A stretch of DNA of 64,000 bases from Azolla caroliniana (GCA_043228905.1 JBHGNT010000015.1:4650001-4714000); one strand, 5' to 3'. Positions 853 through 64,000 are shown, counted from the stretch's first letter. A program made the numbers and translations. The notes: generated by a model not told the origin, from the sequence alone.

Positions 853-1507
853 ACTGTGTCGTGCCTTTCGGCTCCGGATCGTTGCGTGAGTCGGGTGGGA
901 ACCACAGAGGTCTTGGACTAGGAGAAAGAAATTCGTGAGATAGAGATTAATTATGAGTAAATAGCAAAGAGAAAGATAAGAAACTCGTGAATCACACGAG
1001 TATACTATATTAATTGGTACTTAGGGTGTTAAGAGAGAAGTAGACGTATAAATCGTGAATCCCACGAATAATTTTTGTATTGATTAATCCTTAATCCAAA
1101 TAATCAACAACTCTTTACATATTTCTCTCCTCCTTATATAAGGAAGGAAGAGCTAAGCATGGCTTCATGCTTTTTTTTTACAAAAAGTGTTCATGTCCAC
1201 TAAATGTGCATGTGATGCTTTTTTATTTCCTAAGTATAGGGCTCATGCACGCTAGATGTGCATGAGTTATTTTTAGTGTCTCGTGTTTTTTCTTTTTCAT
1301 ATATTAAAGAATACACGATTTACCTTTTAATAAAGGTATGCATAAATAAAGGTCTTATACATATTAAATCTATATTTAAAGCACTTAAGATAAGTTAATG
1401 TAATGGTAAGGTTGGGGTTTGTCAACGTGGAGGTGCAGAGTTTGAATCACGCCCTGCGCAGTAGTGAGTATTTCCTTTCTTTTTACATTTATGTCTCTTT
1501 ATCCGGC

Positions 1508-1652
1508 TCTTCCTTGCCGGTATGCCGTTTTCTTCCTTGCCGGTATGCCGTTTTCCTCCTTGCCGGTATGCCGTTTTTCCTCCTTGCCGGTATGCCGTTT
1601 TCCTCCTTGCCGGTATGCCGTTTTTCCTCCTTGCCGGTATGCCGTTTTCTTC
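1508..1652. repeat. Tandem array, 6 copies of a 23-24 bp unit (TCCTTGCCGGTATGCCGTTTT(T)CY), inside U3 of the element A LTR
   Basis: Direct head-to-tail repeats with no spacers. Confidence 0.95.
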
Positions 1653-2410
1653 CGGTTCTCCCCGAGCACTCCATTCTCTATCCGGAGGGACAAAAATATA
1701 ATTTTCACATAGTGTGCAACCTACACTATGACAACGTATAATAAATAAAATAAAATATTAAAAATATTTATTACGTGCATAGGGTAGGATTCGAACCCTA
1801 TACCTCCACATCGACAAACCCCAACCTTACTGTTGTACTAACTTATCCTAAGTATTTTAAATATAGATTTAATATGTATAAAGCCTTTATTTACGCCTAC
1901 CTTTATTAAAACGAAAGTCATGCATTTTTTAGAATGCGTGAATACTTTATTTATAAGAAAAATGTACACCAATAAAAAATGACTCGTGCACATCTAGCGA
2001 GCATGAGCACTATATTTAGGAAATAAAAGCATAGTGTAAAAAGGCAACTCATGCACATTTAGTGTGCTTTAGAAAAAAGCATGAAGCTATGCTTAGCCTC
2101 TTCCATCCTTATATAAGGAGGAGAGAATGATGTATGGGGGTTGTTGCTTATTTTACAAGGGTGGATTAATATAATATAATCGTGGGATTCACGATTTTGC
2201 TAACTATTTTTCTCTTTTAATCTGAGTACTCACTAATACACTATACTCGTGGGATTCACGAGTTTTTCATATCTTTCTTTCTTACAACATATTTCATGTT
2301 CTTCATTGCCTTAGAATCTTCTTTTCTCCTAGTCCAAAACCTCAGTGGTTCCCACCCGACTCACGCAACGATCCGGAGCCGAAAGGCACAACACAAGTGG
2401 TGAACCCGAC

Positions 2411-5400
2411 ATGAACACCGGTGGCAAGGAGATGGAAAATCAACCGGAGGCTAACAACATGATGATGATGTTCAAGCGGATGCTTCAAGAACAACGTGCG
2501 ATATCGGAGATAGCGGCGGCAGTAGAGCGGCTCGTGCAACGGATCAGGCAATTCAACGGGAAGGACGTATCACGCTATCTTCGGGACTACAAGGCGGAAA
2601 TGATACGATGCGGGATTTCGGAAGGACTGCAAGTGACATCCTTCAACCGGGTAGCTACCGACGGGCTTTAAGCAAGTATCCACAGGCTATGACAACAAAA
2701 TCCGACGTGGGAAGCATTTGAAGAGCTGTTAAAGATCATGTTCTCTATCGAGGACTCCTCCAAGGCAATGCGGAGAGGATTCGAGGATTGGGTAGAAACG
2801 CCGGACAAGGGGATGAAGGTCCTCGATGTGTTTTCAGCATTCGAAAGTCGGTTTGGGAGGTTGTCTGCGAGAGATCAAGCTATCATCGCACCAGACAAAG
2901 TTATCATGTTCTTATGAGCCGTAGACGTCCGGAACCGGAAGGATCTTGGAGTGCTTCTAGAGGACACGACTACTGAGAGTGGCCTCACCGAAACATAGGA
3001 AAGCGTGCGGGATATCGTTGCGCGATACACAAAGAGGGGGCAATGGCTTGCCAACGAAGAAAAGAGGCTTTCGGAACCGATTCCGAAACCGAGATCCAAA
3101 TCAGAAAACCATCAATCGTGGGCTCGGGAAGCTACGACCGAGAAGGGAATCGACTCAACTACGGTGGAGCAGTTGCTGAAGGAGATGGAGAATCTAAAAA
3201 TCGTGATGGTGAAGAAGTCGGATGATTGTCCCACAAGTTCCAAGTATATGGACTGTCGGTGCATATGGTGCGATAGCACCGAACATGATCGGAGGGATTG
3301 CGACGAGCACAAGGAAGCCCCTCCGACTGAACTTCCGAAAAGGCGGCATGAAGAAGGTCCTAGAGGAGGAAATAACGGCAAAGAGCAATTACGCGACAAC
3401 CGCGGGAATACGTGTCGGGGAGTCATTGGGAGCAAAGGTGTCTTTTTGGCCGGAAGTGCTAGAAAACACTGAGAAAAACGACTCTAACGAGATCCAAAGC
3501 ACTGCGGAAGGCATCTGGGAAGCTACGGGATGGGAGTGCCCCGTCGATAAGAATAGCGTATACGCCCTATGTCAATTACATGAGGTGTATGTGGATGAGA
3601 AGCAGCGACGCACGGAGGATGCGGCTGGACCATCGAAGACACCGGAGAGCTGGAACTCCGACGGAAGAGGGAAAGGAAAAATGATTTCGGCATTCAAGCT
3701 CGCCTCGGACATCGAACAACAAACGGACTTGAAAAAGGTGTTCAAGGAGAGAATTCTTGACAGCCAGGTAGATTTTTCGCTTCGGGAACTACTCGGAATA
3801 GCAAAAAAAGAGTTCCATGATCTTCTTGTGGATCTCGTAAAAAGAAAAAGACAAACTACTGAGGAAAATGCGCCGATGGTGAATGCAAATACCATTCTGA
3901 TGAACGACACCGAAGTGGAGGACGAGATTCCGAATTCCCACTATACAAAGCCACACTGGGTGCGTGCAACTACAGAGACTCCGGTCCGAATCGGCAACAT
4001 CAAAGAGCCCGTGCTAGCATTGATTGATCACGGATCGGAGATCAATTTGATGTCCAAAGAGTTCTACCAGAAGGGGAAGTGGCCTATTAACACCAATCAT
4101 GGATGGAAGATCTGGGCGGCCACTAAAGCAATGGAAGATCTATTTGCGGCTTGTCCGGATGTGACGGAAGATCGGGGATGTCGAGATCGACCAAAATTTC
4201 TTCGTACAAGACGAGGTCTCACACTCAGTGATCCTCGGGCAACCCTTTCTCACGGCATCACGGATGGAGACGAAGGTGCTCGATAGCGGTGCGGCTTTTG
4301 CACGAATTCGGAGCCAAACGGAGGGAAATCCGTCCAATTCCTAACGGTGCCGGCAAATCATGAAAGGAACAAGAGAGAGCTCTTGTCCCAAACAAGGATG
4401 GATTTTTAGAGCGGACTGTTGCGGAGTGGGGAAGTGATAGTCCGAGAAGCCCTGATACCCCACATAGGAAGAAAACTCTCGGATCACAACAAGTACGAAT
4501 CGGTTCGGATGGGGCATCTACATACACAGCCGTAACCGGAGGAATGAAGAAAGAATACCGAAAAGTGGAGGATAAGTTATGGTCGGCATCGATAATAAAA
4601 TAAGATGAAGAAATCGTGGGAATAGTTGAAGAAATGTTCTATGGAAGCACGCTACAACGGCTTGAAGAGCTCGCGAAAGATACAAGCCAGGGAGACCGGG
4701 TAGTCCCGGTGGAATCGGTCGAGATGTACGAGATCATTGTGAAAATGGGGCCGGATGCGCTCCGCAAAGAAGAAGCAATGGTAAGTACGAAATACAGGAC
4801 CGTGGAGAAGAAGGTGAAACCGGCCGCGGGACCACTACCCACCGATAGCGAACAAAAGAGGAAAGAAGTCTCGGGAGATCCAACACTTCAGAAGTCCGTG
4901 GATATTTCTCGGGAGCCTTCACGGATGAGACCCGGAAGAAACTTTGGATCGGTGGAGGTGGTTTCCTTTTACAAAATGAAGAAGAACGATTCCGAGGGAT
5001 GTTGAAACAACATGGGGAAGCATTTGCATTCACATCGAGGGAGATAGGGTGCGTTGATCCGAAGATAGTGGAGCCGATGGTGATCTTCACGATTGACCAT
5101 GTGTTGTGGAACCTGAAGCCGATTCCGGTGCCACGGGCGCATATTCCGAAAGTCATCGACTTGCTCAAGGAGAAGGTGGCGATGGGGATTCTAGAGACAT
5201 CAAACGCTCCGTACTCAAATCGATGGTTTACAGTTCCGAAGAAGAATGGGTCACTCCGATTTATTCAAGATTTGCAACCGGTGAACAAGGTCACGATCCG
5301 GAACTCCGGAGTCGGTCCGATAGTGGACGAATTTGCGGAAGCATTTGTCGGTCGCGCGATATACTCCATCGGAGACCTATACTCCGGATATGACCAATTC

Positions 5401-7849
5401 CAACTAGCCGTGGAGAGCCGAGACATCACTACCATGCGGACACCGATAGGATTAGTCTGTATGTGCACACTACCACAAGGCGCAACAAACTCGGTCGCAC
5501 ATATGATGAATGCAATGAACAAGGTGCTCCGGGACTGCATTCCGGAGATAACGATGCCGTTCCTAGATGACATTCCAATGAAAGGATGCGCGGTAGAAGA
5601 AAAAGATGAAACTATGGATGATCGGGGATGCCGAAAGTTCGTAGTCGACCATATTCATGATTGCGAGAAAGTGCTTCGAAAATTAGAAGATGTGCACCTA
5701 ACACTTTCCAGTGAGAAATCGACATTCGGGCAAGAAGAAATATTGGTAGTCGGACATCTATGTGGGCCCTACGGCCGAAGACCGTCACCAACCAAGATCG
5801 ATGCGATTCAAGCTATGAAAGAAGTATACGAGTCACAATCCGAAGTCCGAAGGTTTCTTGGAGCATGTGCGTTCTATCACATATGGATTCCGCACTATGC
5901 ACATATTGCGGACCCACTCTATCACTTGTTGCGGAAGGGTAAGAAGTTCGAATGGAAACCGGAGCATACCAAAGCCGTGAAGAAGCTCAAGAAATCACTA
6001 TGGAGGGCAAAAGCACTAAAGAAGCCGAACTATGACTGACCAATCATAGTAACGGTTGACACAAGTCCAACCGGAATCGGATGGGTCATCAATCAAGCCG
6101 ACTCGGATGGTTCGCGATATCCAATCCGATTCGGAGCAAAGGTTCTCAACGAGAGGCAACGCGGATATGCACAAGTCAAAAGAGAATTATGGGGAGTTGT
6201 GTCGACAATCAAATCAGATCGAGATTATTTGATTGGAGCCAAAGTAGTGATCGAAACAGATTGTCTTCCAATACTCGGGATGATGCGGTGTTGCACGATA
6301 CTGGATGTAGCTATGCTAAGATGGATTGCATATGTTAAGTCGCTTAATCTGGAGGTATGACACATCTCCGGAAAAGACAACGCGGTAGCGGATATGCTAT
6401 CAAGGGCACGGTTCGGAGATGACATAACCGAATCCGATAATGAAGAAGTTTCCGAAGACTACTTTGCTTCGGAGCACATATGCCGGGTGAATGTAATCCG
6501 AGAATTCTGGGAAGAAGAATACGAGAGAGAAAGCTTGCTGATCGGGAAAGTGCTACAAGAAATCGAGGAATCATCGAACAATAAAGAGAAGAGAGCCGAG
6601 ATCCGAAGTAAGAAGCGGCAAGTCCGAAAGTTCTTCTTGAGAAATGGATTAATATGGAGGGAGCCGAAAAGACCGGATGGCATACCACTTCGGGTAGTTG
6701 GGACGAAAGAGCAATGAAACCGGATAATGTCCAAATTTCACAAATCCGATTGGGCTGGACATTGAGGAACGTGGGCAACTTTTGTGAAAATCAAACAAAA
6801 ATATTGGTGGAAGAACATGTACAAAGATATAGCGGAGTTCACGGAAAGCTGCGAGAAGTGTCAAATCTACTCCGGAGTTCGACACCAAGATGAGTTACAT
6901 CCAACATTCTCATCGACAATCAACTTCAAATGGATGGTCGATATTGTAACCATGCCAACAGGAATCAGACAAAAGAAGTACTTGGTGTTAGCTCGGGAAG
7001 ATCTCATAAACCAAGTAGAAGGTCGGCCGTTACGAAGGAAAACATGTTCTGTAGCATGCCAATTTCTTTTGGAGGAGGTGTTTTGCAGGTACGGGTGCGT
7101 AGGACAAGTGATTGTGGATCGGGGAGAACTCGACTCTAATAAAGCTAAGGAATTCTTCACCAAACATAGAGTTCGGTTAACACTGACAACGACATACAAT
7201 CCGGAAGCCAACGGGAAGATCGAACGAGGACATAGTCCGATCGTCAAAGCACTTGCGAAGGCATGCGATGGAAGGGTGAAGGATTGGCCGCAGATGCTTC
7301 TGTATGCACTATGGGCGGATCGGACGACGCATAGCTCCGTAACCGATTACATGCCGGTAGAACTCATGATTGGACAAGAACCGGTGATGCCAATGGAAAC
7401 CGCGATCGCGACATGGACAGTGCTACCGTGGAAGGAAGAGATGAGCCGGGAAGAACTACTAGCGGTCCGGATATGACAACTAGAGGGAAGACCAGAAGAC
7501 ATAGCGGAAGCAATACACCGACAACAAGAAGCGCGATTCCGGAATAAAAGTCGGTTCGACACAAAGCACCGACTACGACCGCGGAAGATTGAAGAAGGAT
7601 ATTGGGTGATTGTCTATGACAGTAGTTTGGATCATCAACATACAAACGATGTGGAAGTTCGCGAAAAGGTGGTTCGGGCCATACGAGGTTCGGAAAGTTT
7701 TCGACAACGGAACTTACCGACTATGCGAGTTGGATGGAACGATGCTACAAGTGCCTATAGCCGGGAAACGGGTGAAGATTTTCAAGAAGCGGAGTGATGA
7801 AGAACCCTATGTGATCCTAGACAAGACCGACAAACGAAGATCGCGGTGA
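2411..7849 (+). pseudogene. Disrupted gag-pol of element B
   Basis: CCHC knuckle CIWCDSTEHDRRDC, protease ALIDHGSEIN, RT LPQGATNS...FLDD, RNase H, integrase core (VDRGE...YNPEANGKIER) and C-terminal WFGPY. Multiple stops and frameshifts. Confidence 0.9.
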
Positions 7850-7987
7850 TGCGGGAAACGAAGAAAGTGGATTACAACTCATAGTCGACTTAAGGGGAGA
7901 ATCGGAGGAAGCTTCGGATGAAGGTGAATAGCAAGCATCGGGGACTTCGGCACATACCGGAGGATGTGCGGGTTCGGAGGGGGCGAG

Positions 7988-8706
7988 TGTCGTAGTGTGA
8001 ATCACACACTACGTGAAATATGTAAAATACTATATCTGATTTAAAGTACGTATAATAAATAAAATAAAATATTAAAAATATTTATTACATGCATAGGGCA
8101 GGATTCGAACCCTGTACCTCCACGTAGACAAACCCCAACTTACCATTGTACTAACTTAGCCTAAGTATTTTAAATATAGATTTAATACGTATAAGACCTT
8201 TATTTACGCCTACCTTTATTAAAACTAAAGTCATGCATTTTTTAGAATGCGTGAATACTTTATTTATAAGAAAAATGTACACCAATAAAAAATGACTCGT
8301 GCACATCTAGCGAGCATGAGCACTATATTTCGGAAATAAAAGCATAGTGTAAAAAGGCAACTCATGCACATTTAGTGTGCTTTAGAAAAAAGCATGAAGC
8401 TATGCTTAACCTCTTCCATCCTTATATAAGGAGGAGAGAATGATGTATGGGGGTTGTTGCTTATTTTACAAGGGTGGATTAATATAATATAATTGTGGGA
8501 TTCACGAATTTGCTAACTATTTTTTTCTCTTAATCTGAGTACTCACTAATACACTATACTCGTGGGATTCACGAGTTTTTCATATCTTTCTTTCTTACAA
8601 CATATTTCATATTCTTCATTGCCTTAGAATCTTCTTTTCTCCTAGTCCAAAACCTTAGTGGTTCCCACCCAACTCATTCAATGATCCGGAGCCGAAAGGC
8701 ACGACA
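7988..8706 (+). repeat. Intact 3' LTR of element B (719 bp)
   Basis: TG...CA ends with a 6-bp terminal inverted repeat, preceded by a PPT, with a TATATAA box at ~8423. Confidence 0.95.
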
Positions 8707-12872: not shown

Positions 12873-15545
12873 TGTCGCGTTGTTACGCGCGTGCGTGGGG
12901 AAAGGCGGGACCACGGGGGTCTTGGACTAGGGAGCGACAGAGCGTAGGAAGTCGTGCTTCACTGCTTTTGAGGCATCTCAGAAACACACCGGAAGCAACC
13001 GAAGGGAGAGAGAGCGAGAGTGAGAGAGAGAGAGCATGCTTAACACCGACTCACGCACACACACACACACACAGCCCGACCTGACTCACGCCCTTATGTA
13101 CAGGAAACGCAGGGAAGAAGGGGAGCACCCGACACCAACAAGACGCCAATATACACAGACAGACGCAAACGTATATGTATATATATAGAAGAAGAATACA
13201 TTCCCGGCTTCGAGCCGGACCAAGATAGTTTACAACAGTCGTCTGCTGTCAAGCCGCCGTCGGGGAGCTCTCGGGCTCGTCGCGCCGAGCGGGGTCTTGC
13301 ACAGGAGATAAGCTGCAGCCAACCCTAAACGAACACGAAGGGGAAGAAGAAGAAGCAGAAGAAACCTAACCCTAAACCTACCGGTATACCCTCTAATCCA
13401 AAATGGCAACCCCTTTACAAAGGACGTTCCCTTCCTTTTATAGAACAAGGAAAGGGAGGCGTTACAACGTGGGACAAAACCTGACTTTCATGGGATCGTC
13501 TGTCCCGACTTGACTACTCTTCGGCGCCATAAAGGCGCTCTCGTTATTCACATCAAATGTACATGGGTGCGTACACGCGCTGCACCCCGCCGATGTAGCC
13601 AATGTTTCCCGGTTTTCGCCTATGGCCGAAATTCTTCACAACGCACCAGTCCGGCCTAACTGATCATTCCCAACCGATCCGGCCAATGTTGAGCTTGTAT
13701 CTCAACAGTTTTTAATTGCCATATCTTTGGCTCCAATACTAACCTTAGCCAGTTCCCTATGAACCTCAACGAGGGCTGCGTTTAATGGGGGTAGTTCAAT
13801 TCCCATTTGGAGTATACCGACATTCCGTTGTCTGCCTACTCTGGCCAGTGGCCCCTCATCCTCGCTTTCCGCCGTTTTGTTAGCGCACGCTCAATCATTT
13901 GTTGTTCCATGTGCTCCTCGACCATCCTTTGTGAGACCTTTATTTGTTGGGTCGCCAAAAATTCCATGAGTTTATAAGTAATTCCGAAATGTAAAAGTGT
14001 GCCGAACTCATGGGTTCTGTCTGGAATGTCCGGATACTTCAAGACCTCGCTTTCCGCCGTAAATACTCCTTTCCCCCGCTGTGACTGGACCGTAATGATC
14101 GGTCGTGGTTTCCGGATTATTTTGAAAGTGGTGTTGGGCTCCGTAGCTGCAGAACTATCGACCAATGTGGTCATGTCAGTGTCCGCAATTGTGTCTTTGT
14201 TCGCGGTTGTGTCTTTGACTAATCCGCGCCCATCTTTCCTGTCCAGCCTACGCCGTTTCGGGCTCGGGCTTTCCTGGCATTGCTCAGCTTCCTACTCTTG
14301 CGAGCTTCCTCCCTGCTCGCCAGCCGTTCTCCCTGTGTTGTCCACGTGCTAGGCTGGGAAGATTGGGGTTCATCTTCCCATTCCAGGGTAGCCAACTCCG
14401 CTAACCTCCGTTTCGCGGAATGTGGCGGCTACGTGGGTTTGCTAGGCTATGGTGCGGGTAGACCTCAGGGTGGAAATAGTATCGTCAGATACTGTTGTAT
14501 GATTGGCCTTAGCTTTTTGCCGCCTTGATACGCCTGCAAGCCTTCCTGTAATGTTGGTCCCATAATTACCCCCCAATCGACCGCGCGCCCTTCGAAGGTA
14601 TCAATGATGATGCATGCCTTCTGCTTTGGCAACCCATAGGCATTTACATGCATGCATCCTACCTCCAACAAGAACTTGGCTATTTCGCGAAAGAAGGGGT
14701 CAGGAATTTCCTTTGTCCTATATGCTTTGGCGGACGCCGAATATGCCCCAAAATATCTCTGCAAGGTTTTCGTAGGAGGGATGTCGAAATGTCTTTCTCC
14801 AAGCGATGAAAAGTCAAGCTTCTTCCGGATGGATGCGCTGGTGACCGTGTCTATATTGAGTTTCCTAGCAATGTCCAGGGCTTTAGGGTGAGCAAGTGCC
14901 TCGGCGACTTTGATGTATCCATCCAGTCGCTTTTCGATGAGCCATCTCCGCAAGGTGGTAGAAATAGTGATCGGCATCATAGGTGGGTTAGACTCGTGGG
15001 GAGTGGGTGAGGTTTGCTAGCTATGGCGAAAGTGGGTTGTGTGGTATGATGGAGAGGAGGGTGAGTGAGGAGAGCGACGAGGGTTAGAGGCCGAAGATTG
15101 GTTTTTGTATTGTGCAGAAAACCTTCTATTTTCTTCTTTTTGTGGCCTAGGGTTCATTGGTCGGTGAGCTATCGTGGTGCCGTGTGTTCTTTTAATAGCG
15201 TCACTATCTTCTCTCTTTTTTTCTTTTTTTTTCTTGTAACGGTTACATACAATATTACTATTACATTGTAATACAAGTGGGTCCCTTTTAATGAATTAAT
15301 CCACGGATTCTTCAGTCGTGTCGTTTACGGCGTGGAACAGGTTTGGAGGCACCGATCATAGGTAGGGTTTTAGTCAAAACCCATTCACTTTTTGTCGTAA
15401 CACTTCCCTGGCTAGGGTGCCTAGTTGAAACTTGTCATTTTCCGCGCCAACTATCCAGTATGGCCCCGTACAATGGAATCTTAATTTTCTTGGCATTTGT
15501 CCCATCCGTGTTTGAAAGACTAAGACCACTTTGCCGAGCACTTGA
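12873..15545 (-). mobile_element. 3' part of a Ty3/gypsy element (element D): integrase C-terminus, extra ORF, 3' LTR (~12873-13707)
   Basis: GPY-type integrase tail (KLRFHCTGPYWI, 15374-15540). The LTR ends ...CGCGACA and shares the U5 motif CCTAGTCCAAGACC..GTGGT with A/B. TATAAAA at ~13436-13442 (minus). The LTR 5' boundary is tentative. Confidence 0.75.
13836..14980 (-). pseudogene. Disrupted extra ORF (~380 codons) between integrase and 3' LTR of element D; function unknown
   Basis: Two sense-strand pieces (171 aa at 14465-14980, 112 aa at 13836-14174) in different frames, with coding-like composition. Confidence 0.6.
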
Positions 15546-15549
15546 TATG

Positions 15550-16030
15550 GCCAAGACAGAGATATTGAGATTAAGATTTTAACTCTTGATTTAAGAAACA
15601 AGATATATCATCAATGAATTTTCTTCTCATTAATTTCTTAGTTTATACATGGCTCCATAATACATTTTCATCCATCCTTTTATAGATGCCCCCATGCATA
15701 TGATGCATGTTTGCCATTTGGCGCTCATGTATTACGGGTGGTGCATGATAACCATGTCACTCATTTTAGCTCTCATGCATAAGAATTTACATGTAAAACT
15801 ACAATGATAGAAATATAATTTTAACTAAATATCTTAGCTTAGTGGTAAGCCAATGGACTCCTAACTTGGAGGTGCAAGGTTTAAATCTTTACTTGCCCTC
15901 CTTGTATATGTATATATATTTATATATTTGTTTATCTAGTCGCCCGATGTCGTCGCCTCGCCGGATTACCGGCTCCATTGCCGCCGGCGCATGTCGATCG
16001 TCGGTTACCGTCCAATTCCGTTTTGGTTGG
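15550..16030 (-). repeat. LTR-like fragment with TATA box and tRNA-like A/B-box cassette
   Basis: Same layout as the element A LTR: CCTTTTATAG at ~15680, then A-box 15835-15845 and B-box-like 15879-15887. Boundaries approximate. Confidence 0.5.
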
Positions 16031-34300: not shown

Positions 34301-35822
34301 CGCAATAAAGACATAGTTGATTTGCTCGACGTCGCTGCTTTTCTTCTTCTGATAATGGTCCGCGATGACGTGTAGTGTCAATCTCCATCGGAGTCGGAGT
34401 ATTCATTGGAGACGCATTATATGACTCCCTCGGAAAAGGTTTTGCTACCACTGAGGCGTAGGTGGGCTCTGATCTTGCCCTCAGCATCTGGAATTGCCAT
34501 TCTGAATGTCGTTCGAAAAGGCGGTTGTCGCATCTCACCGCGCAATTGATTGCATCTGTTAATAACTTTGGTTCTTTGGGGAAGGTCAAGAGTAAATCCT
34601 TGACATTGTTGCATAAACCATAACGAAATTGCTCCATCAATGCTTGATCATCCCAAGGGATATCGGCAGCGAGTAGGCGGAAATCTACAGCGTATGCAGA
34701 GGCTAGACGATCACCTTGGTGTAATCGTCGGATTTTGTTGATTATTGTCCTTATGCTGTCAGTATCTCCAAAACAAGCTTTAAACTCACTTATAAATTCT
34801 TCAAAATTGTTTGGTAATGGAGATTCCTTTTCTAGCAACGGAGCAAACCATGCCAATGTTGAGCCACTAAGTAGGGTGCCTACTAGTCCCACTCGTGATG
34901 CATCAGTGGGATATCAAGAAGGATGCATTTGAATCACTAAACGTACCTGATTCAGAAAACCTCTAAACTGTGATCGGGTCCCATCAAATTTTGCAGGAAG
35001 ACCGATCTTGGGTTCTTTGTGAATCCCTTGAGTGCTTGATCCTTGTTGTTGTAGTGATACAATAGTCGCTTCAAGTTGTTGTACACGAAATGTCAGCTCC
35101 CCATGTTGTTGTTTTTCCAGCATTATTTGCTAAAGATCCCCCAACAAACGGTGATTTTCTTGTTCTAGTGCTACAAATTTCTCTTTTAAGCACTGGAACT
35201 CCGAGAAAACAGATTGGTATTCCTGAGTGCTAACAGTTTCCATTTTACTAGGGAGGATAAGAGGATTAGTATGAAGGTAAAAAAGGGGTAAGAAGATGAG
35301 GGAAACTGGAAAAAAGGGGATATGTAAGAAGATAAAAGGAAGAGGAGGAAAGGAGGAGACGGAAGGAGAACAAATCGGTTCAAATTGTTAGGAATTGTAC
35401 TCAGACAGAGAAGAAATTAGTATTAAGAGAGGAATATTAGTACTAAGAGGAATAGAGGGTGTAAAACACTCAAGAGAAGGAGAGAGAGTGTGTGTGTGAA
35501 TGAGTGAGAGATCGAGGGAGAGAAAATGATGATGACAGCGATATATTATGTGAGAAGAATATACAAGGAAGGCTAGGAGGCTTAAGACTGGCGTTGAACC
35601 GATTTGGTTCGAAATAATGTCTTGTGCCTCCTTTTATAGTGTTCTTAGGAGTAGTCCTGAAGCTTCTAGAATGTTCCAGAGAAATCTGGAATATACATTA
35701 ATTTTCTATTGTAAAACTTAAATAAAAATAATATCCTACGTATTACAATAGATAGTGTAATGGTCAAGAGCTCGACCCATGTAACATAAGGTCATGAATT
35801 CAAGTCTTGTCATATCATGACA
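31373..35822 (-). mobile_element. Tcn1-like chromovirus (Ty3/gypsy), 3'-truncated, with 5' LTR 35386-35822
   Basis: Gag PAKFDGTRSQFRGFL, knuckle CLYCGGPWHIVVNC, protease ALLDSGA, RT (YLDDLL), [27 protein letters not shown]. No tRNA PBS. Confidence 0.93.
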
Positions 35823-45413: not shown

Positions 45414-48400
45414 TTTTGTTTTTGCTCAAGAAGTGTTGGTAATTCTAACACCTTACATAAAATGCGTGAGCTATAAATTGAAACACTTTTGATCAAAGCA
45501 GAAGTGTCGGAATTTTCCGCACTACTTATAGATTTTAGTAGTGCCGGAAACTCTAGCACTCCGAAATCATTTTAAGATGTTGAAGTTTTCATATTTTTTA
45601 TTACTACCAAATTTTCTCGTGAAAATAGTAGCTGAAAATGTAGGTTCAACTTTGACACGTTTTTGGTAGAAATTATTTTGCTAAGTTTCTAACTATAGAC
45701 GAATGCTAGAAACAAGTCATTTAGTAGTACGGTCAACATCTTTGAAAATTTAGGATCCTTATCATGTACTATGGAATGATAGTCCGAGTTGATAATTATA
45801 TTTCTTTTTTTGGCATATAACATGTGTGTGTGAACACTTTTATAATAAGCATGGTTGAGGTTTAAGGAGTCACCCTCGATAAATAAGATAAGAAGTTAAG
45901 AAAAGATATTGAATGTTATATCATCCCATGGTTTTAAAACACTAATTGTGTTACCACAATTACCTACACAAGTTATTTGAATGCTAAATTTATAAATATT
46001 ACTACATATATATTTGTGTGACGAATATAAGTTCTGAAGAATAAATAACTAAATGGAGATTAAATCCAAATGGTAAGATTTAACCATTTGAAAGATAAGG
46101 TCAAGGATTTGAACTCCATTAGGAGCAATGAAATACCGATGTGAGCAATAATGTGGAAGTGATGACAAAGAAGTGGATATGGACATGGTAACGATAATTT
46201 TGCCAAAAGAAAAGACATTGGTACATGATAAAAGAGGTGCCACTCTTTTCCCACATAGAAACTCAAAAAATCACAATTTTTAGAACGCAAGCACATAACT
46301 TCGACAAAAATTTGATCATCGGGGTTTAGGGTTTCAAAATATTCTTCTTGAGAGGATATGAGGGTTTCGTGATCTTCATCGTGGGAAAGAGGCTCGTAGA
46401 GGATGGAATTTTGCGAATAATTGATACGAGGGTGCAACATGCCACACCAAAACTCAACAAAATTCTCTTCATCATTCTTCGCACCAAGTTCTACTAGGAA
46501 TTTAGTTATTTTTTTCCTTACCGTATATAAAAGGGTTTCTATAACCCATTCATTGCAATTTGGATATTCTACTTGAATTTATTGTAATTTGTGGAAATTA
46601 TATTTGTTTTAGAAATTGTACTATACAAATGTCGAAAGATTTTTAAATTGTGGTATTGGTAATTTAGGTCAAATGATGATCGTGGGAAAACTCCCACCTT
46701 AGAAATTCAAGCATCAAATGAAACATTCCACCTTGTTTGGATAATTTTACTAGGAGGTGGAATTCAGACCCACATTTTTTTATTAACTATTGTCGAATTG
46801 ACTCTATGAGGGTCACAACAAAATTTTCGGGTCAAAAATCTACCAGTTTCTTTTATGATAAAACAAGTTTAAGAGTGATGGGATTCTAACAACCATACTA
46901 AATTCTGAGAAATCCAATGCTAAACCAACCGGCCAATGCTTACATACCGAAGTAAAGTTCTTTCCTTTCCCAACAAGGGACTTTAGTGATTTCATCCCTA
47001 GGACATTTTATACCAAGATTTGAAACCTAGAGACGAAGAAGAGGCCTAGAAGTGAAGAGGAGGGGGGTCAAAAAAGTGAACAAAAGAAAAAGAGAAGGGA
47101 AAGGAGAGGAAAGAGAAACATGTTATTGTATTGGGCACGAAAATGAAAGAAATTTTCCAAGATACAAACTATGGGGTTCTGCCCATCTTGTGACCCAAGT
47201 TCCACCTATGTATTTATGGGTTTCTTAGTAATAAAAATAAGATAGGATTCAAGCTAGATAGCCCATGCACTCGACATCCAATCTAAACTGTTTCATATTA
47301 GAGCTATTAAAAAAGTACGATTTTGAATTAACATGTATTGTAGGAGTGTCTAGTTGTGTTTTTTGTGTATGAACACCAACATCTAGTCCCCCGCACGTAA
47401 TTGATCACATGTTTATAGAATTTGTAAGTATATTGAAGGTGTGGAAACATTAGTTTATTGCTTTAAATGGGGAATGTGAAGACTTATTCCAAGGTTTCTC
47501 ACATTTTTGGGTTTGTGCATATCCACACGGATGACATCATGGCACGGATGACATCATGGTGGGTTATATGCTTTGAGCATCCATGTTATTTTATTAATGG
47601 GAAAATCCATGGATGCTCTTATTGTGGAGCTTGGCTCACACGAAACATGAGGCAAAGATTGGACCCTATGCTTTGTCCGTTGCATAAATTCGTTTACCCT
47701 CAACCAATTCTATTAATTAGTATTATGTTGCATGTGATGTGATCGAGTTGTTAACAAGACAATATCGTCTTAATTAATGTCTTTTGCTTGGGAATTGCCC
47801 ACCGTTTCAAACATATGCATGCAAACAAAAATGATAAACCAAGAAAATGAGGTGGCACTTTCCATAATGTTAGGTAGTTTACGACCTGAACATCATAGAC
47901 ACACTGGTTTCCATGGAAATATATGTATGTAACGTTGCAATGTACATTTTGACCAATCTCTAATTAAACAAACTTACACGGTAGACCAAAATGATTGCAA
48001 TCTTAAGGAATGGATTAAATTTCGTCTTAAAGCAATTTCATTCTCCGTGCCATTAATCAAAAGGTGGAATAAGGCAACTAAATTGATAGTTCTCATTACT
48101 TTATTAGTGCAAGAAAAGGACAAAAGCAAAATTTGACTTTCAATTGCCTTCATTACTTTATTAGTTGGTGGACCTCAACAAATACTTGAGTTTTGATTTA
48201 CTTGTCGATTGTTCACATTCTAGAGATAGGACATAACAAGCTTAGTTTGTGATAGGATACCAATATTTTCTTACTAGAACCAACTATTATTCAAATCCAG
48301 ATCCGAAAAACTCAAAAATCAATTAGATATTAATTGCTTGAAAAGTAAAACTTCCAAAACTTTGTCTTCTATGATAATGTTGATGCGTGTATGGAATGGA

Positions 48401-50370: not shown

Positions 50371-51618
50371 ATGGCTTCCCCAGCAGACCCCATCACTACC
50401 CCATCTGCATCAGATAATTGCAGGGTAAGAAGCTCTTTCCATACTCTAACACACAACCACAAAATCCCCTAGTTTCTGAACCCCCCCCCCCCCCCCCCCC
50501 CTAATCCCCTGTCCTCGAAAAACATTCGGATCAATTAGAGTTTCCATACATATATGCATCTCGATGTGATCTGTTTGTGCGGTTGTTTGCAGGGTGTTGT
50601 GCCTTTATCCACATGGGTTCTCATCTCTAATTTCAAGCTTTCTTACAACCTGTTAAGAAGGCCCAATGGAACCCTAGACAGACATCTGGCCGAGTTCCTA
50701 GACCGGAAGGTTCCCGCAGACCTGAATCCGGTCGAAGGAATCTCGAGCATCGACATAATCATCGATCGAGCGACAGGGCTATGGGGAAGAATCTTCTGGT
50801 CATCTTCCAGCCACATTAATGGTACTACACGCAGTATCAATGGGGATGAGAACCCATCATGTGATCCATCCCTTCCAAAAAAGCCCTTGCTTGTGTATTT
50901 CCATGGCGGAAGCTTCGCGCATTCGTCGGCGAACAGTGCAATCTACGATGCCATGTGCAGAAACCTGTCTAGGTCATGCAAGGTTGTGGTTCTCTCCTTG
51001 AACTTCCGGCGGGCCCCCGAGCATCCATGTCCGGCCGCATATGAAGACGGCCTTATGTGCGTGAGATGGGCCCAAATTGGGCTCGGGAGGCAGTGCCTCA
51101 CGAGGCTAGGGTGCGATCCGAGGAACTGTTATCTGGCCGGGGATAGCTCGGGTGGGAACATAGCCCATCATGTGGCGGCCCGAATTGGAAGCGAAATCGG
51201 GGGCGGCTTGTCTCTCTCGGGCATGATCTTGCTTATGCCTATGTTCGGTGGCGAGGAAAGAACCCCCGCGGAGAAGCTCCTAGATGGGAAATTCTTCGTG
51301 ACCGTGAAAGACCGAGATTGGTATTGGAGAGCTTTCCTTCCGATGGGCGCGAATCGAGACCACCCGGCTTGCAACCCATTCTCGCCATCGGCACCCTCAT
51401 TGAGCGAGGTTAAACTCCCCCCATGCCTTGTGGTTGTGGGTGGCCTAGATCTCCTTCAAGATTGGCAACTAAGGTATGTCCATTCGCTTCATCGACAAGG
51501 GAAGTCGGTGCAACTTATGTTCCTAGAGCAAGCTACCATGGGCTTCTTCCTTCTCCCCAACACAGAGCAATACTACTCTCTCTTGGAGAAGATGAGAGAG
51601 TTTCTCAAGCAACCCTAA
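50371..51618 (+). CDS. GID1: Gibberellin receptor GID1 (alpha/beta hydrolase fold); exon 1 50371-50424, GT-AG intron 50425-50592, exon 2 50593-51618; 359 aa
   Basis: N-terminal lid VVPLSTWVLISNFKLSYNLLRRPNGT, HGGSFAHSSANSAIYD, GDSSGGN, FVTVKDRDWYW, LDLLQDWQ. The catalytic His is absent (ATMGF). The short first exon and phase-0 intron (GTAAGA...TTGCAG) match the usual GID1 gene structure. Confidence 0.96.
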
Positions 51619-55046: not shown

Positions 55047-55048
<2 letters not shown>

Positions 55049-56153
55049 GTAAGTGCACTAGCTTACAAAAAAGACAAAAAAGCAAAAAGGTATGTAGCCT
55101 TCATGCTCATGAGATATATATACATATTAATACCACCCACTTAAAAGATATCATTGAGAAGATGTTGTGGCATCCTTGCTCTAATTTATAAACAAACCAA
55201 TAGAAACAACAATAGTAATAATAAAAAAGACTACAAGATATCCATTTTTAAAAGAAAACATAATGTGAAAACACATTAAAATCGTAGCTTGCCCTCGGCA
55301 TTTGTTCCCTTCAACTTCCCATGATGATGCTTGCTTATTTGAGTGGAAACCAGTTGTAAGATGTTTGGCATGATTTAACAAAGCTATGGATAAGTCTAGG
55401 TATATATAGACCTCACATTGTGTTACATGTTGATTTGCTTTGCTAATATGTTTTAGTTATGAATCAAGGAGAACCAAATTAGAATTCTCAAACTAATCTT
55501 ATAATAAGATCTTATTGTTGGCTAGTTTATATTGTTTGTTTAATGTCACTTGGGGACTCGAATATAATCGACTTTGATGTTCATAGTATGGATTTCGCCA
55601 CGATTTCTCTATATTAAATTCCCATGTTCCATGCTTATCCATGTTGGCACTTGGTTTTTTCAATCCTATCCATTTCACTACAAGCATCCTATTGAATTTT
55701 GAAGTTTAGAGCTATTGTAGCTCACTAGTTATAAGGGGTCAATCCTAGAGAGAGTATGCAAAAGCATGTTGATGCCTATTACATCTACAAATAATGTAGT
55801 GGCCTACTAAAATATTTTACATGATCTTCTGTTGAAAACTAGATGAAGTAACATTTTAATCAAGTAACAAATTGGTCATTAAGGCCAACAACCACAGGCA
55901 TTGAAAGCTTAATTGGGAAACTAATGAATTGTGGCGTGGTCTCAAAATACAAATTTGAGGGGTGTAATTGTTGTTTATGAATATATTAATGCAATTAAAT
56001 AGTATGGTGTGAGGATTATGTTGCATGATGTTCAATGCCATGTACACATTGTGATCATACCCATCCAATGTTTGAGGACCCATGTATTTTGTTCCATGCC
56101 CGTAACATAATATGTCCAAACAATTTATATTCCTCATTGAAAAATCACATACA

Positions 56154-59100: not shown

Positions 59101-61519
59101 TGGTAGGTGAAAGGGGCCCCTTTTTCTGACTATCCCGATCTGTATGACAGGGATGCCCACTAGCTCCATCCTTATTTCTATTATATGCCGAAACACTCTC
59201 TTGCTTTCTCAACTCACGACATCTCAACCTACGTGGTCTTCCTGTGCTTCATTCTCATCAAAGCATCCTGGATATAGAATTTGCAGATGATGCATCGGTC
59301 TACTTGCAAGGGGACTTGGAAAACCTACAAAAGCTTGAAAGTGGGTTAGCCGTATTTTGCAAGAGATCCAATGCCACGATCAATTGGCAAAAATCCTGTG
59401 CAATATGGATTTCTCATGAAACACATCCTGCGTGGCACCCACATCCCGCTTTCAAATGGATCAATCAAGGAGCGAGCACCAAATATTTGGGTTTCCAAAT
59501 TGGTTTCAACATACCGCCGGAGACTATGATTGCACATGTTATCCATTCCATTTGACAGAAGTTGATACATTGGAGTTCGAAAAAACTATCGCTAGCGGGT
59601 CGCATCATAGTGGCAAACCAACTACTACTCGCAACAACATGGTACAGTCTATCATGTTGGACAATCTCCAAGGACAATATACATCAGATTCAACGACTGG
59701 TACGCAACTACATTTGTTCTGGTAAGGAAGATTATGTAACTCGCGCCAAGGTGGCATGGCCTATACTCACAACACCTAAGTCGAGAGGGGGATTGGGTCT
59801 TGTTGATCTCCTCTCACAATCAAAAGCCTTACTTGCCAAATTTGTGGTGTGAGGACTCCAACCAGTAAATGACTGTTGGAAAATGCTAATGCGGTTACAT
59901 TTCGCTTACTTTAGGCCACGAAAAGGGGTTAATTGGGCCCCCCAAACGGGATGGATTCTAAACATGGATCTCAAACTTAGTTTCTCTCGCCAATTGGAGG
60001 ATAGATTCAGTGCATCCATGTGGAAGGCGTGGTGTGACATTAGATGAGGGCTCAAGTGCGATCAACTGAGTTCCAAACCTGCCTGGCTTAGTCAACGTAT
60101 CCTATGGAACCCATGTATCAAGGATGAATCTAATCAACTACTTGGATCAAGTAAGGGGTTGTCATGGGGATACATTGTAGAGGGTCCAGGAAAAAGTATA
60201 GAATGTTGGAGACGGTTTATGTCACTGCCACTACAAGATCAAGCCAACATACACCATGGAATCAGGGGCAAATGGACTATGAGATCGGAAATCAATAACG
60301 CTCTACTGTTTAGGGAAGCCGCTACTCATAAGACGACAATGGAGAAATGGATAGGCTACGAGGAGGAGGGATCTTTGATCCCGAGAGGTAGGGGATCACT
60401 AGAAAGGATCGAAGGCTCTAAATTGCGAGGCACTGAGACACCAACATAGAATAACGCAATTCGAGTACTCGCGTATACTGGTCATAAATGGATTGTAGAT
60501 CCTGATCCGATCAAAGTATAACCCGATTGGCACATATGTACTCATGAAAACACATGGCTACGTAAGGTCAGTTGGAATCCTTTGCAATGGACATGGCATG
60601 ATCCTTATGCAGAGCAAGGAAGCAAACCCATCACTTTCTTCCAATTCACAACTAGATTGGGTCGCCACATCCTAGCGGCTCAAACTGCCCGAGAGCCGAC
60701 TGCTGTAAAGGTTTGGCACACATATCAAGTTCCTCACACAATTATCACCAAGTTTTGGCAGAAAATCTGGAAACAACAACACGCGAGGCGAATTGCCACG
60801 TTCCAATGACTATTAATACATAAGTCACTACTGGTGGGAGCATGGAAACATGGGAACCTTAGCTCTCCTAACTGTGTAGAGTGTCCAAATGCAGTAGAAT
60901 CAATACGACACGCTCTGTGGGACTACCCAACGTCCCATCGAATATGGAGGGGGGTTGGCCGCTTGTTGCAATTATGCCAGGTGCAAGGCTCAATCAAGTG
61001 GGGAAATATATGTTGGCTATCATGGCAGACCCCAGTTGGCAGATACGAGCATTAGGAGGTGGGGATGACTTTGGTGATAAAAGCAGAAGAGGTTTTCTTC
61101 TCCACCATCGACAATGTCCACTCAACTCCTCTTAATGACAAATCGCAAGTTGTGTTGGAATTGGTCAGCCCAATAACTCTTTGGATTCTATGGAAACAAC
61201 AGTGTAGACGAGTCTTCTCCAACCAAACCACGCATCCAACAATGTTACTGCAAGAGATATGGAGTGAAATTGTAGCCACTTTAAAGATCCAATATGATGG
61301 CCTCAAGGGTAGCTCTGATGGAGTTGAAAGACAACGAATAGCCTTTATCCAACAATGGTCGTCCTCTCCCTTTCTTGAGTCAGTGGGCATCCACATAAGA
61401 TGGAACTATCGCGTCCCTATAGGGATTTGTACATAATAATCTCATTTGTAAAATTTTATAACTAATGGAAGGAGTTTTTTTTGGAAAAAAAAAGAAAAAG
61501 AAAAAAAGAAAAAGAAAAA
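56154..61519 (+). mobile_element. L1-type LINE, 5'-truncated, with TSD and A-rich tail
   Basis: TSD GAAAAATCACATACA at 56139-56153 and 61520-61534. ORF2 remnant ~57146-61436: MKIVTWNVQG, GDFN, SRIDH, FSDH, WRPITLLN, FADD, zf-RVT CVEC...H. Tail at 61486-61519. Confidence 0.95.
56330..57050 (-). mobile_element. Solo LTR (copia F-related, 721 bp) inserted in the L1
   Basis: TG...CA ends, TSD GGAAA on both sides, terminus GGAGGGACCTGTTTCCTAACA as in F. Internal 40-bp tandem array at ~56815-56965. Confidence 0.92.
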
Positions 61520-62815
61520 GAAAAATCACATACATTAGTGTACAATGAAGAAGTGACCAACACTTGTAAATATAGTTTACACAATTTACTTCTTGTAGAA
61601 TTAATGATTTGGGTATGCATATGGCATACCATGGCCAACTAGGCTATGGATAAAGTAACAAACTGCATTCACATGCTCGTGACTATTTGCTACCAAATCA
61701 TAATGAGGCACGACGAGGGAATCGTGGCCATGAACAATGCAAGGTGCGTTTCTAAGGGAGCATGTGATTTTCATAGTCAAATCTTTAATAACCTTTGTCA
61801 CCTGAAACCCGGCTTTGCACTGTTTTACTATCACTGTTAATTAGGCTCTGTCATTGATAACCCGACTCCGCTCCCATCAACTGTCAATGGTAACCCAACT
61901 CTTTTGGATAATCTGAGTAACCTAGCTGAAAATTTGTGCTAAGTTTCAAAAACTCAAAGATTAAAATCCTATTTAGAAAGAGATCAAAATATTTTAGTTT
62001 TAAATATATAAAAACTCCACCATTAAAATTGAAATGTGTGCAAATTGTCTTCCCAATGTAAAACAAAAAGCAAGAGATAATTCCAAAAACCGTTTCGTCT
62101 AAGATTTGGGCTACCATGAAGATTTGAGCATACACAAAAAATCCAATTATTTTTGAAGATACTAGAAACTTCAACTTACACAAGTTTCAAAAATCACAAG
62201 CTATGTAATGTTAATTTTGAAGACCGAAAACCTTTGACTATAAAGACCCAAAACCTAAAAATTAAAAACTGAATCCATACAAAAAACTCAAAGATCATGG
62301 CCCTTGTGGGGAGGATGGCAAAACACAACCACAATTTTTGCAGCAATCAACATTTGATTCCCTTGAAGTCAAGGTCAAACCATCACAATGCAAACACCGA
62401 GCCCTTGTTAGTCTCACATATTGACAACCACCTCTTAGCACGACGAGCAACTCTTTGTAGTCTTCCGACACGTGTTTTAGTCTTGTTTGGGGAGTTGCCA
62501 ATAAGTTCTTGCAAGATTTCGAAGGTGGCACCTCTTTTCGCACGAATTTGCTGGTTCTAATTGGTTAAACATTCGGATGGTATATTGGAAGAAGGCAATG
62601 CACGCATAGATGAGAAAATATGATTTCATAGATCTTCTATGAGTTGCCAACACTGCTCAACTTTAACCATGTTCATCGCTCTTGATCCTTGCTCAAGAAA
62701 TTGAAGTGATTATATAGTTTGACATGTTTCTTACTTCATTTGTTCCCTTTCACCGACTTCTGCATTGAAAAACCTTAGATGCTCTATGTATATGTATACA
62801 TATACATATAGATAT

Positions 62816-62866
<51 letters not shown>

Positions 62867-63236
62867 TGCAACCACCCGTGTGTCAAGCGGTAAGCAAACC
62901 ACATCCAAGAGGGTGGAAAAGGGAGAAGTGGTTGTGACACATGACCGTGATCTTTAAGACATAAATTTGGTGAACACGACATGAAGTGTCACTAAGGGGA
63001 GTTTTGGAATTAAAGTTCGCCGCAACGGAGGTCAGAAAATTGAGAAGATGGGGAACAAGGGCTTCAACATAGAGATGACAAGTTTCATGATGATGATGAT
63101 GAGTCGTATGTTGTAGGAGTAGAGGTCGATGAACCAGATGGAAAGTGAATTAACACTCGCCATGTAGATGGTCATTGAGAGGATAAACAAATTCACCCGG
63201 TTCCTCGAGGTCTATGAATACGAAATGGCCAATAGA

Positions 63237-63286
63237 TGTCGAGACTTGAGAATAGGAGAGAGAAAGATAAGATGACGATAGAAGGT

Positions 63287-63331
<45 letters not shown>

Positions 63332-64000
63332 ACTAGAAATGGAAAGAGAGTTTATATTATAAGAGAGCAAGGATTACAAAGAGTAGGCTAAGGGGCTACA
63401 AACTGGTGTTGAATAGAATGAGTTGTGATGAATGAATAGACACCTATTTATAGGTCCTTATGGCGTATTCTAGAATGTTCTAGAATATTTTAGATATTTA
63501 TGATATTTAATATAATCATGGAATATCCTAGAATGTTCTAGAATACCCAAAATATCTTGTAATAACTAATAATACATTTATTATAACTATACATCATATA
63601 TGTTATTATAATGGTTAAAGGTCTAACATATAGACCAAGAAATCTTGGGCTCGAATCCTTGTAAGGCCAAAATGTATGTCTTCATGACATTATCCCCCCT
63701 TTTTGACAACGACTTCCATGAGTTGGAAGACAAGATTTCGGACTTGGCTTATGGGGATATTTGTTGTGAAACGCAACATCCATTTCGGAGGCATTAGCAA
63801 AATTCTCGAGAGGTTCCCATGTTCGATCATTAGGTGTATATCCTAACCAGTCAACCAAATAATACAGTTTGTTGCGAACGATCTTGGAGTCAAGAATGGC
63901 AGCAACGTCATATTCGGAGCCATCCGAAACTTCTATTGGAGGTGGGGGAGATGTAAGACGACCTGGAATAGAGCTGGTTGTGTACGGCTGCAAAAGTGAA
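63237..64000 (-). mobile_element. 3' end of a chromovirus (Tcn1-like): integrase chromodomain, PPT, 3' LTR ~63237-63689
   Basis: YDVAAILDSKIVRNKLYYLVDWLGYTPNDRTWEP chromodomain. PPT AAAAAGGGGGA precedes TGTCATGA, the same LTR start as at 35822. The far LTR end is tentative. Confidence 0.88.

What the first reader, a model, noticed from the sequence alone, without database searches (positions are those of the whole stretch)
1396..63704. tRNA-like Pol III promoter cassette, always antisense, in the U3 of LTRs from unrelated gypsy lineages
Seen in sequence: six LTRs carry an A-box-like and a B-box-like motif 43-45 nt apart, which is tRNA-gene spacing. Element A: TAATGTAATGG 1396 / GTTTGAATC 1440 (+). 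Element B, both LTRs (minus): TAGTACAATGG 8153-8143 / GTTCGAATC 8110-8102, and 1840/1796. Fragment: TAGCTTAGTGG 15835 / GTTTAAATC 15879. Tcn1-like LTR: TAGTGTAATGG 35753 / ATTCAAGTC 35798. Second chromovirus: TATTATAATGG 63604 / GCTCGAATC 63649. Each lies upstream of the Pol II TATA box and points away from it. The intervening sequences differ and acceptor stems are lost. T-runs follow in A (1480), B (AT-rich U3) and at the PPT complement (63700). Established: Cassandra TRIMs carry a 5S-derived Pol III promoter in their LTRs, and TFIIIC-bound B-boxes can act as chromatin barriers. Inference: convergent capture or retention of a tRNA-type promoter as an LTR module (insulator against silencing, divergent antisense RNA, or integration cue). 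I do not know of this being described for these lineages.
Basis: partly seen in the sequence, partly recalled or inferred. Interest (0 to 1): 0.8.

Follow-up and report, generated by a model that had tools for sequence, protein, structure and literature searches.

The report
Backwards tRNA promoter in fern LTRs
Two unrelated groups of jumping genes in a fern carry, back to front and upstream of their normal promoter, a worn tRNA-gene-like promoter in their end repeats; it likely serves as a docking site for the RNA polymerase III factor TFIIIC in active copies, but a sister group multiplied without it and no function has been shown.

Summary
The motifs are real, antisense, upstream of the TATA box and above chance (4 strict hits against 0.6 in shuffles). 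But the six cassettes are two lineages, not six cases: A, B and the 15.8 kb fragment are Phygy-like; the two chromovirus LTRs are homologous, Tcn1-like. The cassette is a family trait, not a copy-specific SINE: 16 of 16 B-like and H-like LTRs from related contigs have it, as does a third Tcn1-like LTR. Evidence for selection is mixed. Between subfamilies the boxes and spacing persist while the middle and stems are lost, and high-coverage contigs keep the core B box (6 of 6 against 2 of 12). Within family B the boxes are no more conserved than their neighbours, and the essential C is often lost. Only 1 of 6 window copies has both boxes intact. tRNA-like LTRs are known (Helenus TRIMs, sense, non-coding); antisense in coding elements is a variant I did not find in print. 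This scan noted similar cassettes in fungal-like genomes. Function is untested.

The parts
857..1733 (-). 5' LTR of element A (Phygy-like, same family as B); sits where the first 60 nt of B's 5' LTR should be, next to an ACGT site
1389..1459 (+). tRNA-like cassette of A (A box 1396-1406, B box 1440-1448; B-box C lost in this copy, kept in the 98% identical L044)
1734..2393 (+). 5' LTR of element B, lacking its first 60 nt; PBS at 2398-2410
1776..1846 (-). cassette of B 5' LTR (A box with 2 mismatches, core B box intact)
3213..7797 (+). gag-pol remains of B (DUF4100, RT, RNase H, integrase; no chromodomain hit; several stops)
7988..8706 (+). 3' LTR of B, 96% identical to the 5' LTR, followed by ACGT; TATA-like box near 8422-8433
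8090..8158 (-). cassette of B 3' LTR: the only window copy with both boxes intact; T5 23 nt after the B box
12873..13643 (-).
15530..16000 (-). LTR fragment F, H-like subfamily (TATA-like box near 15678-15690); ends approximate
15829..15898 (+). cassette of F (A box perfect, B-box C lost)
35386..35822 (-). 5' LTR of element C, Tcn1-like: self-priming PBS (35371-35383 pairs with 35594-35606), TATA-like box near 35631-35639, heat-shock-like TTCTAGAA array at 35654-35682
35746..35816 (+). cassette of C; the B box ends 16 nt from the LTR's outer end
63150..63689 (-). 3' LTR of chromovirus E (chromodomain ORF 63685-63999, PPT complement 63690-63704), homologous to C's LTR; lower end approximate
63598..63668 (+). 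cassette of E (one mismatch in each box)

Best explanation
Two unrelated fern gypsy lineages (Phygy-like and Tcn1-like) carry a family-wide, antisense tRNA-like A/B-box cassette in U3, likely captured separately from tRNA genes or tRNA-SINEs, which likely acts in actively multiplying copies as an optional TFIIIC docking site beside the Pol II promoter rather than as the element's own promoter. Shown: presence, position, orientation, family-level spread, loss of the tRNA fold, absence from one sister subfamily. Inferred: (a) at least two captures, because the two lineages' cassettes share only tRNA-invariant positions; (b) spread by normal copying of U3 into both LTRs, with U3 blocks exchanged between subfamilies; (c) selection on the boxes in master copies and decay in old copies; (d) TFIIIC, with or without Pol III, keeps the outer edge of the LTR open or blocks silencing or read-through from the flank, as tRNA genes do in yeasts; (e) the antisense bias arises because a sense cassette would fire into the TATA box and R region.
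For: The cassette with about 20 nt of flank and the neighbouring AT-rich run is the only significant U3 alignment between B and two of three H-like LTRs (z 5.6 and 8.2; L072 under z 3), while H shares only its first 50-90 nt with cassette-less G. B against H LTRs picked by a U5 anchor, not by boxes: identity TAAG 0.89, variable-loop AGGT 0.75, B box 0.67, middle 0.35, flanks 0.31-0.56. Block 8090-8230 is the most conserved part of the B LTR (0.78-0.85 against 0.56-0.64 for the rest of U3 and R-U5; TATA region 0.69). Core B box intact in 6 of 6 contigs with coverage of 20 or more against 2 of 12 cassettes on contigs under 10 (p 0.0015; confounded by subfamily and by differing assemblies). Three diverged Tcn1-like LTRs keep it at the same place. 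In four runs with four organism labels no change of 15% or more is listed at the B-box C of C, and A-box changes fall at 35754 (A/G, allowed), 35757 (free position) and 35755 (15-18% in two runs). Same side and orientation in both lineages. Precedent: a fission-yeast tDNA barrier works in either orientation (PMC2040200, passages); Pol III complexes block neighbouring Pol II read-through (PMC4228148, passages).
Against: 0 of 16 complete G-like U3s carry it, several on high-coverage contigs, so the lineage amplifies without it. Within B the boxes (A 0.85, B 0.78-0.82) are no more conserved than the middle (0.78) or the upstream flank (0.85). The B-box CpG survives in 4 of 14 B copies against 168 of 228 at 21 other CpG columns (p 0.0009), and 8 of 9 CpG changes hit the essential C; this may mean an amplified master had lost it, which the tree cannot resolve. 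The H A box is out of register by one base (B-H identity 0.46). In the C family a third to a half of the depth laid through the B box keeps C's A at the first core position, so a weakened B box seems to have amplified. Polymorphic places in the C cassette (6 of 44) against the flank (14 of 54) do not differ significantly (p 0.21). Terminators are not conserved. No binding or RNA data.
Confidence: 0.45

Rival explanations
1. Passenger: an old tRNA-SINE or pre-tRNA retrocopy landed in U3 of an ancestor in each lineage and has been copied along. Only antisense insertions survived, because sense ones harm the Pol II promoter. The boxes do nothing now.
For: G-like LTRs do without it. No box-specific conservation within B, and fast loss of the essential C. 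An imperfect direct repeat flanks cassette plus T-rich tail in some B copies (p below 0.05 in 4 of 8 related copies, 0 of 6 H-like), as an old target duplication might. A decayed tRNA-like match at 46069-46114 outside any recognised LTR (E 0.011) hints at free SINE-like copies. Kojima 2024 says many Repbase LTRs hold tRNA-like pieces.
Against: Between B and H the middle has drifted to near random while TGGTAAG, AGGT, the B box and the 44-nt spacing persist, and the rest of U3 is not alignable. High-coverage contigs keep the core B box.
Confidence: 0.35
2. Antisense RNA promoter: Pol III transcribes a short RNA outward. From the 3' LTR it would be complementary to U3 and the PPT of the element's RNA and could damp or tune the element.
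For: Always present in antisense; T5 runs 23-42 nt after the B box in A, B and E; both boxes intact in B's 3' LTR.
Against: No near terminator in F or C; the transcribed middle is not conserved between subfamilies; 5 of 6 window copies have a damaged box.
Confidence: 0.12
3. Integration cue: the cassette attracts Pol III-targeting retrotransposons, as tRNA genes do for Ty3.
For: Lead from earlier scan notes on fungal-like genomes (e1-10420520, e1-10420559; unchecked). One interrupted B-like LTR (L051) breaks about 40 nt upstream of the A box.
Against: The other 4 of 5 interrupted B-like LTRs break at LTR positions 88, 266, 287 and 492, not in front of the cassette (some may be assembly joins). 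A abuts B at an ACGT site downstream of the cassette, and Phygy-like insertions follow the NCGN motif.
Confidence: 0.05
4. Chance motif pairs in AT-rich U3.
For: C passes only a loose pattern; at loose settings the window gives 9 pairs against 4.0 in shuffles.
Against: Strict 4 against 0.58; 17 against 0-3 in 156 kb of related loci, 15 of them antisense in an LTR U3; fixed spacing and extra tRNA marks (TAAG after the A box, AGGT before the T arm).
Confidence: 0.03

Closest known systems
Helenus (TRIMp3; Kojima 2024, PMC10886601; read parts 1-4 of 6 of the text, searched passages, two searches in the supplement)
   Same: tRNA-derived sequence in both LTRs, conserved around boxes A and B, tRNA fold mostly lost, proposed repeated origin by SINE2 insertion into an LTR; one plant family (Selaginella). 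The paper notes that 'not a few' Repbase LTRs hold tRNA-like pieces.
   Different: Helenus elements are 311-1263 bp, non-coding, and the tRNA part is sense (sense motif counts 76/120/43 against 6/7/2 for their reverse complements in the supplement), proposed to drive the element. Here the hosts are 7-kb-class elements with gag-pol remains and a Pol II TATA-like box, and the cassette points outward. The paper expects autonomous partners not to share long LTR stretches with TRIMp3.
Cassandra TRIM (PMC7215508, passages; PMC10886601)
   Same: Pol III promoter boxes inside plant LTRs, present in ferns.
   Different: 5S rRNA-derived (type 1 promoter), non-coding; reported to transcribe the element itself.
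Phygy clade of non-chromovirus Ty3/gypsy (Neumann 2019, PMC6317226; passages and one supplement search)
   Same: A, B, F and G: NCGN 4-bp target preference, short compact element, no chromodomain hit, PBS like a tRNA-Trp 3' end (match recalled; Phygy uses tRNA-Trp in 81%).
   Different: Defined from Physcomitrella; the passages seen mention no tRNA-like LTR sequence; no tree against REXdb was possible.
Tcn1 clade of chromoviruses (PMC6317226)
   Same: C: self-priming PBS; E: chromodomain; homologous LTRs.
   Different: Described from mosses and club-mosses; no Pol III cassette turned up in a search for Tcn1 with polymerase III (listing only, one hit opened).
tDNA and B-box chromatin barriers of yeasts (PMC2040200, PMC4228148; passages)
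   Same: A/B boxes next to a Pol II promoter in repeat-rich chromatin; the barrier works in either orientation.
   Different: Shown for real tRNA genes or ETC sites in yeasts, not for plant LTRs; the fission-yeast barrier needs an intact A box and upstream TATA.

Membership tests
Helenus / TRIMp3 | tRNA-derived sequence with boxes A and B in the LTRs | tested here: met
Helenus / TRIMp3 | short (about 1.3 kb or less), non-coding TRIM | tested here: not met
   B spans 1734-8706 with RT, RNase H and integrase; C has gag, protease, RNase H; E has a chromodomain
Helenus / TRIMp3 | tRNA part in sense orientation, able to drive the element's own RNA (seen in the supplement, not stated as a rule) | tested here: not met
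   antisense in all cassette-bearing LTRs; extra sense A box only in L012 and L015
tRNA gene | cloverleaf with acceptor, D, anticodon and T stems | tested here: not met
   ARAGORN 0 in the window; no Rfam tRNA match in the window or 5 loci; folds are not cloverleaves
Type 2 Pol III promoter | A box and core B box GWTCRANNC at tRNA spacing | tested here: inconclusive
   both intact in 1 of 6 window copies; core B box intact in 6 of 6 high-coverage contigs and 2 of 12 low-coverage cassettes
Type 2 Pol III promoter | TFIIIC/Pol III binding and a transcript | not testable with these tools
   needs ChIP or stranded small-RNA data
Copy-specific SINE insertion | present in one copy, absent from sister copies, with its own TSD and tail | tested here: not met
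   present in 9 of 9 B-like and 7 of 7 H-like LTRs and across the C family; only a weak flanking repeat in some B copies
Phygy clade | 4-bp NCGN target site | tested here: met
   ACGT beside A and B; many LTR right flanks read NCGN or a CpG-decayed form; left-right TSD pairs confirmed only in single cases (L073)
Phygy clade | PBS for tRNA-Trp | tested here: inconclusive
   shared PBS seen in A, B and loci; its match to tRNA-Trp is recalled, not checked against a tRNA from a call
Phygy clade | RT/RH/INT placement with REXdb Phygy | not testable with these tools
   REXdb not held; named relatives of B's RT are from Riccia, Adiantum and Calypogeia, plus one Olpidium MAG and one bacterial record that is a likely contaminant
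Tcn1 clade | self-priming PBS complementary to the 5' LTR | tested here: met
   13-nt complement 33 nt after the TATA-like box in C; L022's second LTR is followed by a similar PBS
Tcn1 clade | chromodomain at the end of integrase | tested here: met
   PF00385, E 7.9e-11, in E; C is cut before that point
Tcn1 clade | RT placement with the Tf1/Sushi group | not tested
   C's RT is broken and E's lies outside the window

The most novel reading that the evidence does not exclude
Protein-coding LTR retrotransposons of at least two unrelated lineages have each adopted a backwards tRNA promoter as a working part of U3, using host TFIIIC/Pol III as a portable shield for their Pol II promoter, with subfamilies swapping it for other U3 modules; in one subfamily it was duplicated into a two-way unit around a palindromic B box.
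Probability: 0.3. Interest if true: 0.75.

Novelty: new variant of a known kind. Interest (0 to 1): 0.45.

Why it matters
If the cassette works, plant retrotransposons would be using the Pol III machinery without being transcribed by it. That would add a cis-acting anti-silencing route, and scatter many TFIIIC sites through a fern genome. Subfamilies with and without the cassette in one lineage give a natural control, which makes the idea easy to test. If it is a passenger, it still extends tRNA-bearing LTRs beyond Helenus TRIMs to coding elements and is a source of false tRNA or SINE calls.

Tried and rejected
No whole genome is held, so no genome-wide census was possible. ARAGORN and Rfam found no tRNA. 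Viral contigs gave nothing with B's RT, C's gag-protease, an RT alignment or the U5 pattern. Genome contigs gave no pattern match and four short RT loci with no full cassette match and at most a loose PBS-like hit, so other hosts could not be tested. L064 shows a sense B box and AGGT at the edge of the locus, but its record could not be extended, so it is unresolved. In one search none of the 40 differences shown lies in 8050-8158, but 72 rows were hidden, so this was not used as support. The value 0.17 for the middle of C against L022 is a one-base register artefact and was dropped. An early note that C's weak B box is pure copy decay was corrected: one search shows two states. A note that G is a solo LTR with a TSD was not confirmed. 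The tree of 12 B LTRs is too poorly resolved to say whether loss of the B-box C is inherited. Telobox counts (1-3 in all 16 G-like LTRs, 0-1 in B, 0 in H) suggest a different module in G, but window LTR G has no exact telobox. Ten literature searches found no description of an antisense tRNA-type cassette in coding plant LTRs. Most were seen as listings only; subscription papers and Repbase entries are not covered, and Kojima's remark on non-TRIM LTRs is not itemised in the parts I read. Same-genome notes on tRNA ends replacing the PPT concern a different feature and were not used.
Full report
Setting. The window is from a fern: the best named relatives of the GID1-like ORF at 50539-51615 are from Adiantum, Ceratopteris and Lygodium, at 60-66% identity. 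It is a nest of gypsy, copia and LINE remains (126 ORFs of 92 aa or more scanned). No whole genome is held.

The observation. Five of the six motif pairs read as quoted. The sixth, in B's 5' LTR, has a damaged A box. All six lie in U3, 115-270 nt upstream of a TATA-like box, on the strand opposite the element. The fold is gone: ARAGORN and Rfam see nothing. By the yeast core B box, whose invariant C is needed for TFIIIC binding (PMC4228148, passages), only B's two LTRs pass, and only B's 3' LTR has both boxes intact.

Two lineages, not six cases. A and B are 81% identical over 1.5 kb; A sits where the first 60 nt of B's 5' LTR should be, beside ACGT, so it probably inserted there. They have ACGT flanks, a shared PBS and no chromodomain hit, which fits the Phygy clade (NCGN target, tRNA-Trp PBS in 81%; PMC6317226, passages and supplement; the tRNA-Trp match is recalled). 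C has a 13-nt self-priming PBS, E has a chromodomain, and their LTRs align: both are Tcn1-like. B's RT matches C's RT region at 31-34%. The two lineages' cassettes share only tRNA-invariant positions (A box 0.69, B box 0.66, middle 0.19, T stem 0.14) and show no significant local alignment over the cassette, so I infer at least two captures.

Family-level census. They cluster into G-like (38), B-like (33) and H-like (12) LTRs plus small groups (103 loci with 150 nt or more upstream were clustered). I picked the 32 loci whose U3 was held; the rest end or break before it. The cassette is in 9 of 9 B-like and 7 of 7 H-like LTRs (two H rows are one contig and two are near copies) and in 0 of 16 G-like LTRs. 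The window's own LTR G (about 12873-13643) is of the cassette-less type. A box scan of all 156,443 bases gave 17 pairs against 0-3 in 6 shuffles: 15 antisense in an LTR U3, 1 sense in U3, 1 outside an LTR. Among them is a third Tcn1-like LTR in L022, 78% identical to C, with the cassette at the same place. Fragment F is H-like. L012 and L015 carry a second, sense A box facing a palindromic B box, and the other H LTRs hold worn remains of it. Both families are very abundant in four runs with four organism labels. So the cassette is not a copy-specific SINE, and it is not needed by the whole lineage.

Is it under selection? For: between B and H LTRs the only significant U3 alignment spans the cassette and its near flanks (two of three H LTRs), while H shares only its first 50-90 nt with G. 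In that comparison TAAG (0.89), AGGT (0.75) and the B box (0.67) outlast the middle (0.35) and flanks (0.31-0.56); the A box scores 0.46 because H is one base out of register. Block 8090-8230 is the most conserved part of the B LTR. The core B box is intact in 6 of 6 contigs with coverage of 20 or more, which likely stand for young collapsed copies, and in 2 of 12 cassettes on contigs under 10 (p 0.0015; confounded by subfamily and assembly; L109 left out for want of a coverage value). In the C family no change of 15% or more is listed at the B-box C, A-box changes fall mostly at free positions, and contigs clipped at 35796 (25, 13 and 11 in three runs) continue with a B box that meets the core pattern.

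Against: within B the boxes are no more conserved than the middle or the upstream flank. The B-box CpG survives in 4 of 14 copies against 168 of 228 at other CpG columns, and 8 of 9 CpG changes hit the essential C. In the C family, contigs laid through the B box (31-54% of upstream depth) keep C's weakened first core position. Polymorphic places in cassette and flank do not differ significantly (6 of 44 against 14 of 54, p 0.21), while the heat-shock-like block shows none in 29. Terminators are near in A, B and E, but not in F or C.

Mechanism. I favour, at 0.45, an optional TFIIIC docking site that is kept in active master copies and decays after insertion. It would keep the outer edge of the LTR open or block silencing and read-through from the flank. 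In fission yeast a tDNA barrier works in either orientation (PMC2040200, passages), so the antisense bias needs its own cause; I infer that sense copies interfere with the TATA box. The passenger reading (0.35) is close behind. Antisense RNA (0.12) and landing pad (0.05) have little support: 4 of 5 interrupted B-like LTRs break away from the cassette's start. Nothing here shows binding, transcription or an effect.

Relation to what is known. Helenus TRIMs (PMC10886601; parts 1-4 of 6 and supplement searches) carry tRNA-derived A/B boxes in their LTRs, in sense orientation, in short non-coding elements, and the paper says many Repbase LTRs hold tRNA-like pieces. Cassandra does the same with 5S rRNA (PMC7215508, passages). 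This cassette fails Helenus membership on size, coding content and orientation. Ten searches found no account of an antisense cassette in coding plant LTRs, within the limits of the library. This scan's earlier, unchecked notes describe similar cassettes in fungal-like genomes; they are leads, not support.

Verdict. A real feature, a new variant of a known kind, with function open: interest 0.45.

Noticed in passing
window 35654-35698 and 63465-63546: Both Tcn1-like LTRs carry arrays of TTCTAGAA units like heat-shock elements (motif recalled) between the cassette and the TATA box; in C's family 35670-35698 shows no variant of 15% or more in four runs, so these elements may be heat-inducible.
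   Followed up: partly
L012 and L015, U3: Two cassettes face each other and share one palindromic B box, probably from an inverted duplication; other H-like LTRs and fragment F hold worn remains of the second half.
   Followed up: partly
L064 1-120: A B box with the AGGT mark lies in the sense orientation about 90 nt upstream of a G-type TATA box; the A box would lie beyond the locus edge.
   Followed up: no
G-like LTRs (e.g. L026, L040, L048), R-U5: All 16 cassette-less G-like LTRs hold 1-3 telobox motifs (TAGGGTTT); B-like LTRs 0-1, H-like none. Possibly a different promoter module.
   Followed up: partly
window 46062-46120: Weak tRNA-like A/B match in AT-rich DNA outside any recognised LTR (E 0.011 with the cassette profile); possible decayed SINE.
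   Followed up: partly
window 1511-1653: Six copies of a 23-nt GC-rich tandem repeat in A's U3, between the cassette and the LTR end; absent from B, present in L044.
   Followed up: no
window 50539-51618: Open 359-aa GID1-like gibberellin receptor ORF amid retrotransposon remains, at most 69-70% identical to any database protein listed.
   Followed up: no
L122, L123 (and protein P0232): RTs 63-66% identical to element B lie in short contigs of bacterial genome records; likely plant contamination of those assemblies.
   Followed up: no
L056 about 900-1000: H-like U3 holds repeated palindromic units around CCATGG and GTGCAC that fold into long hairpins.
   Followed up: no
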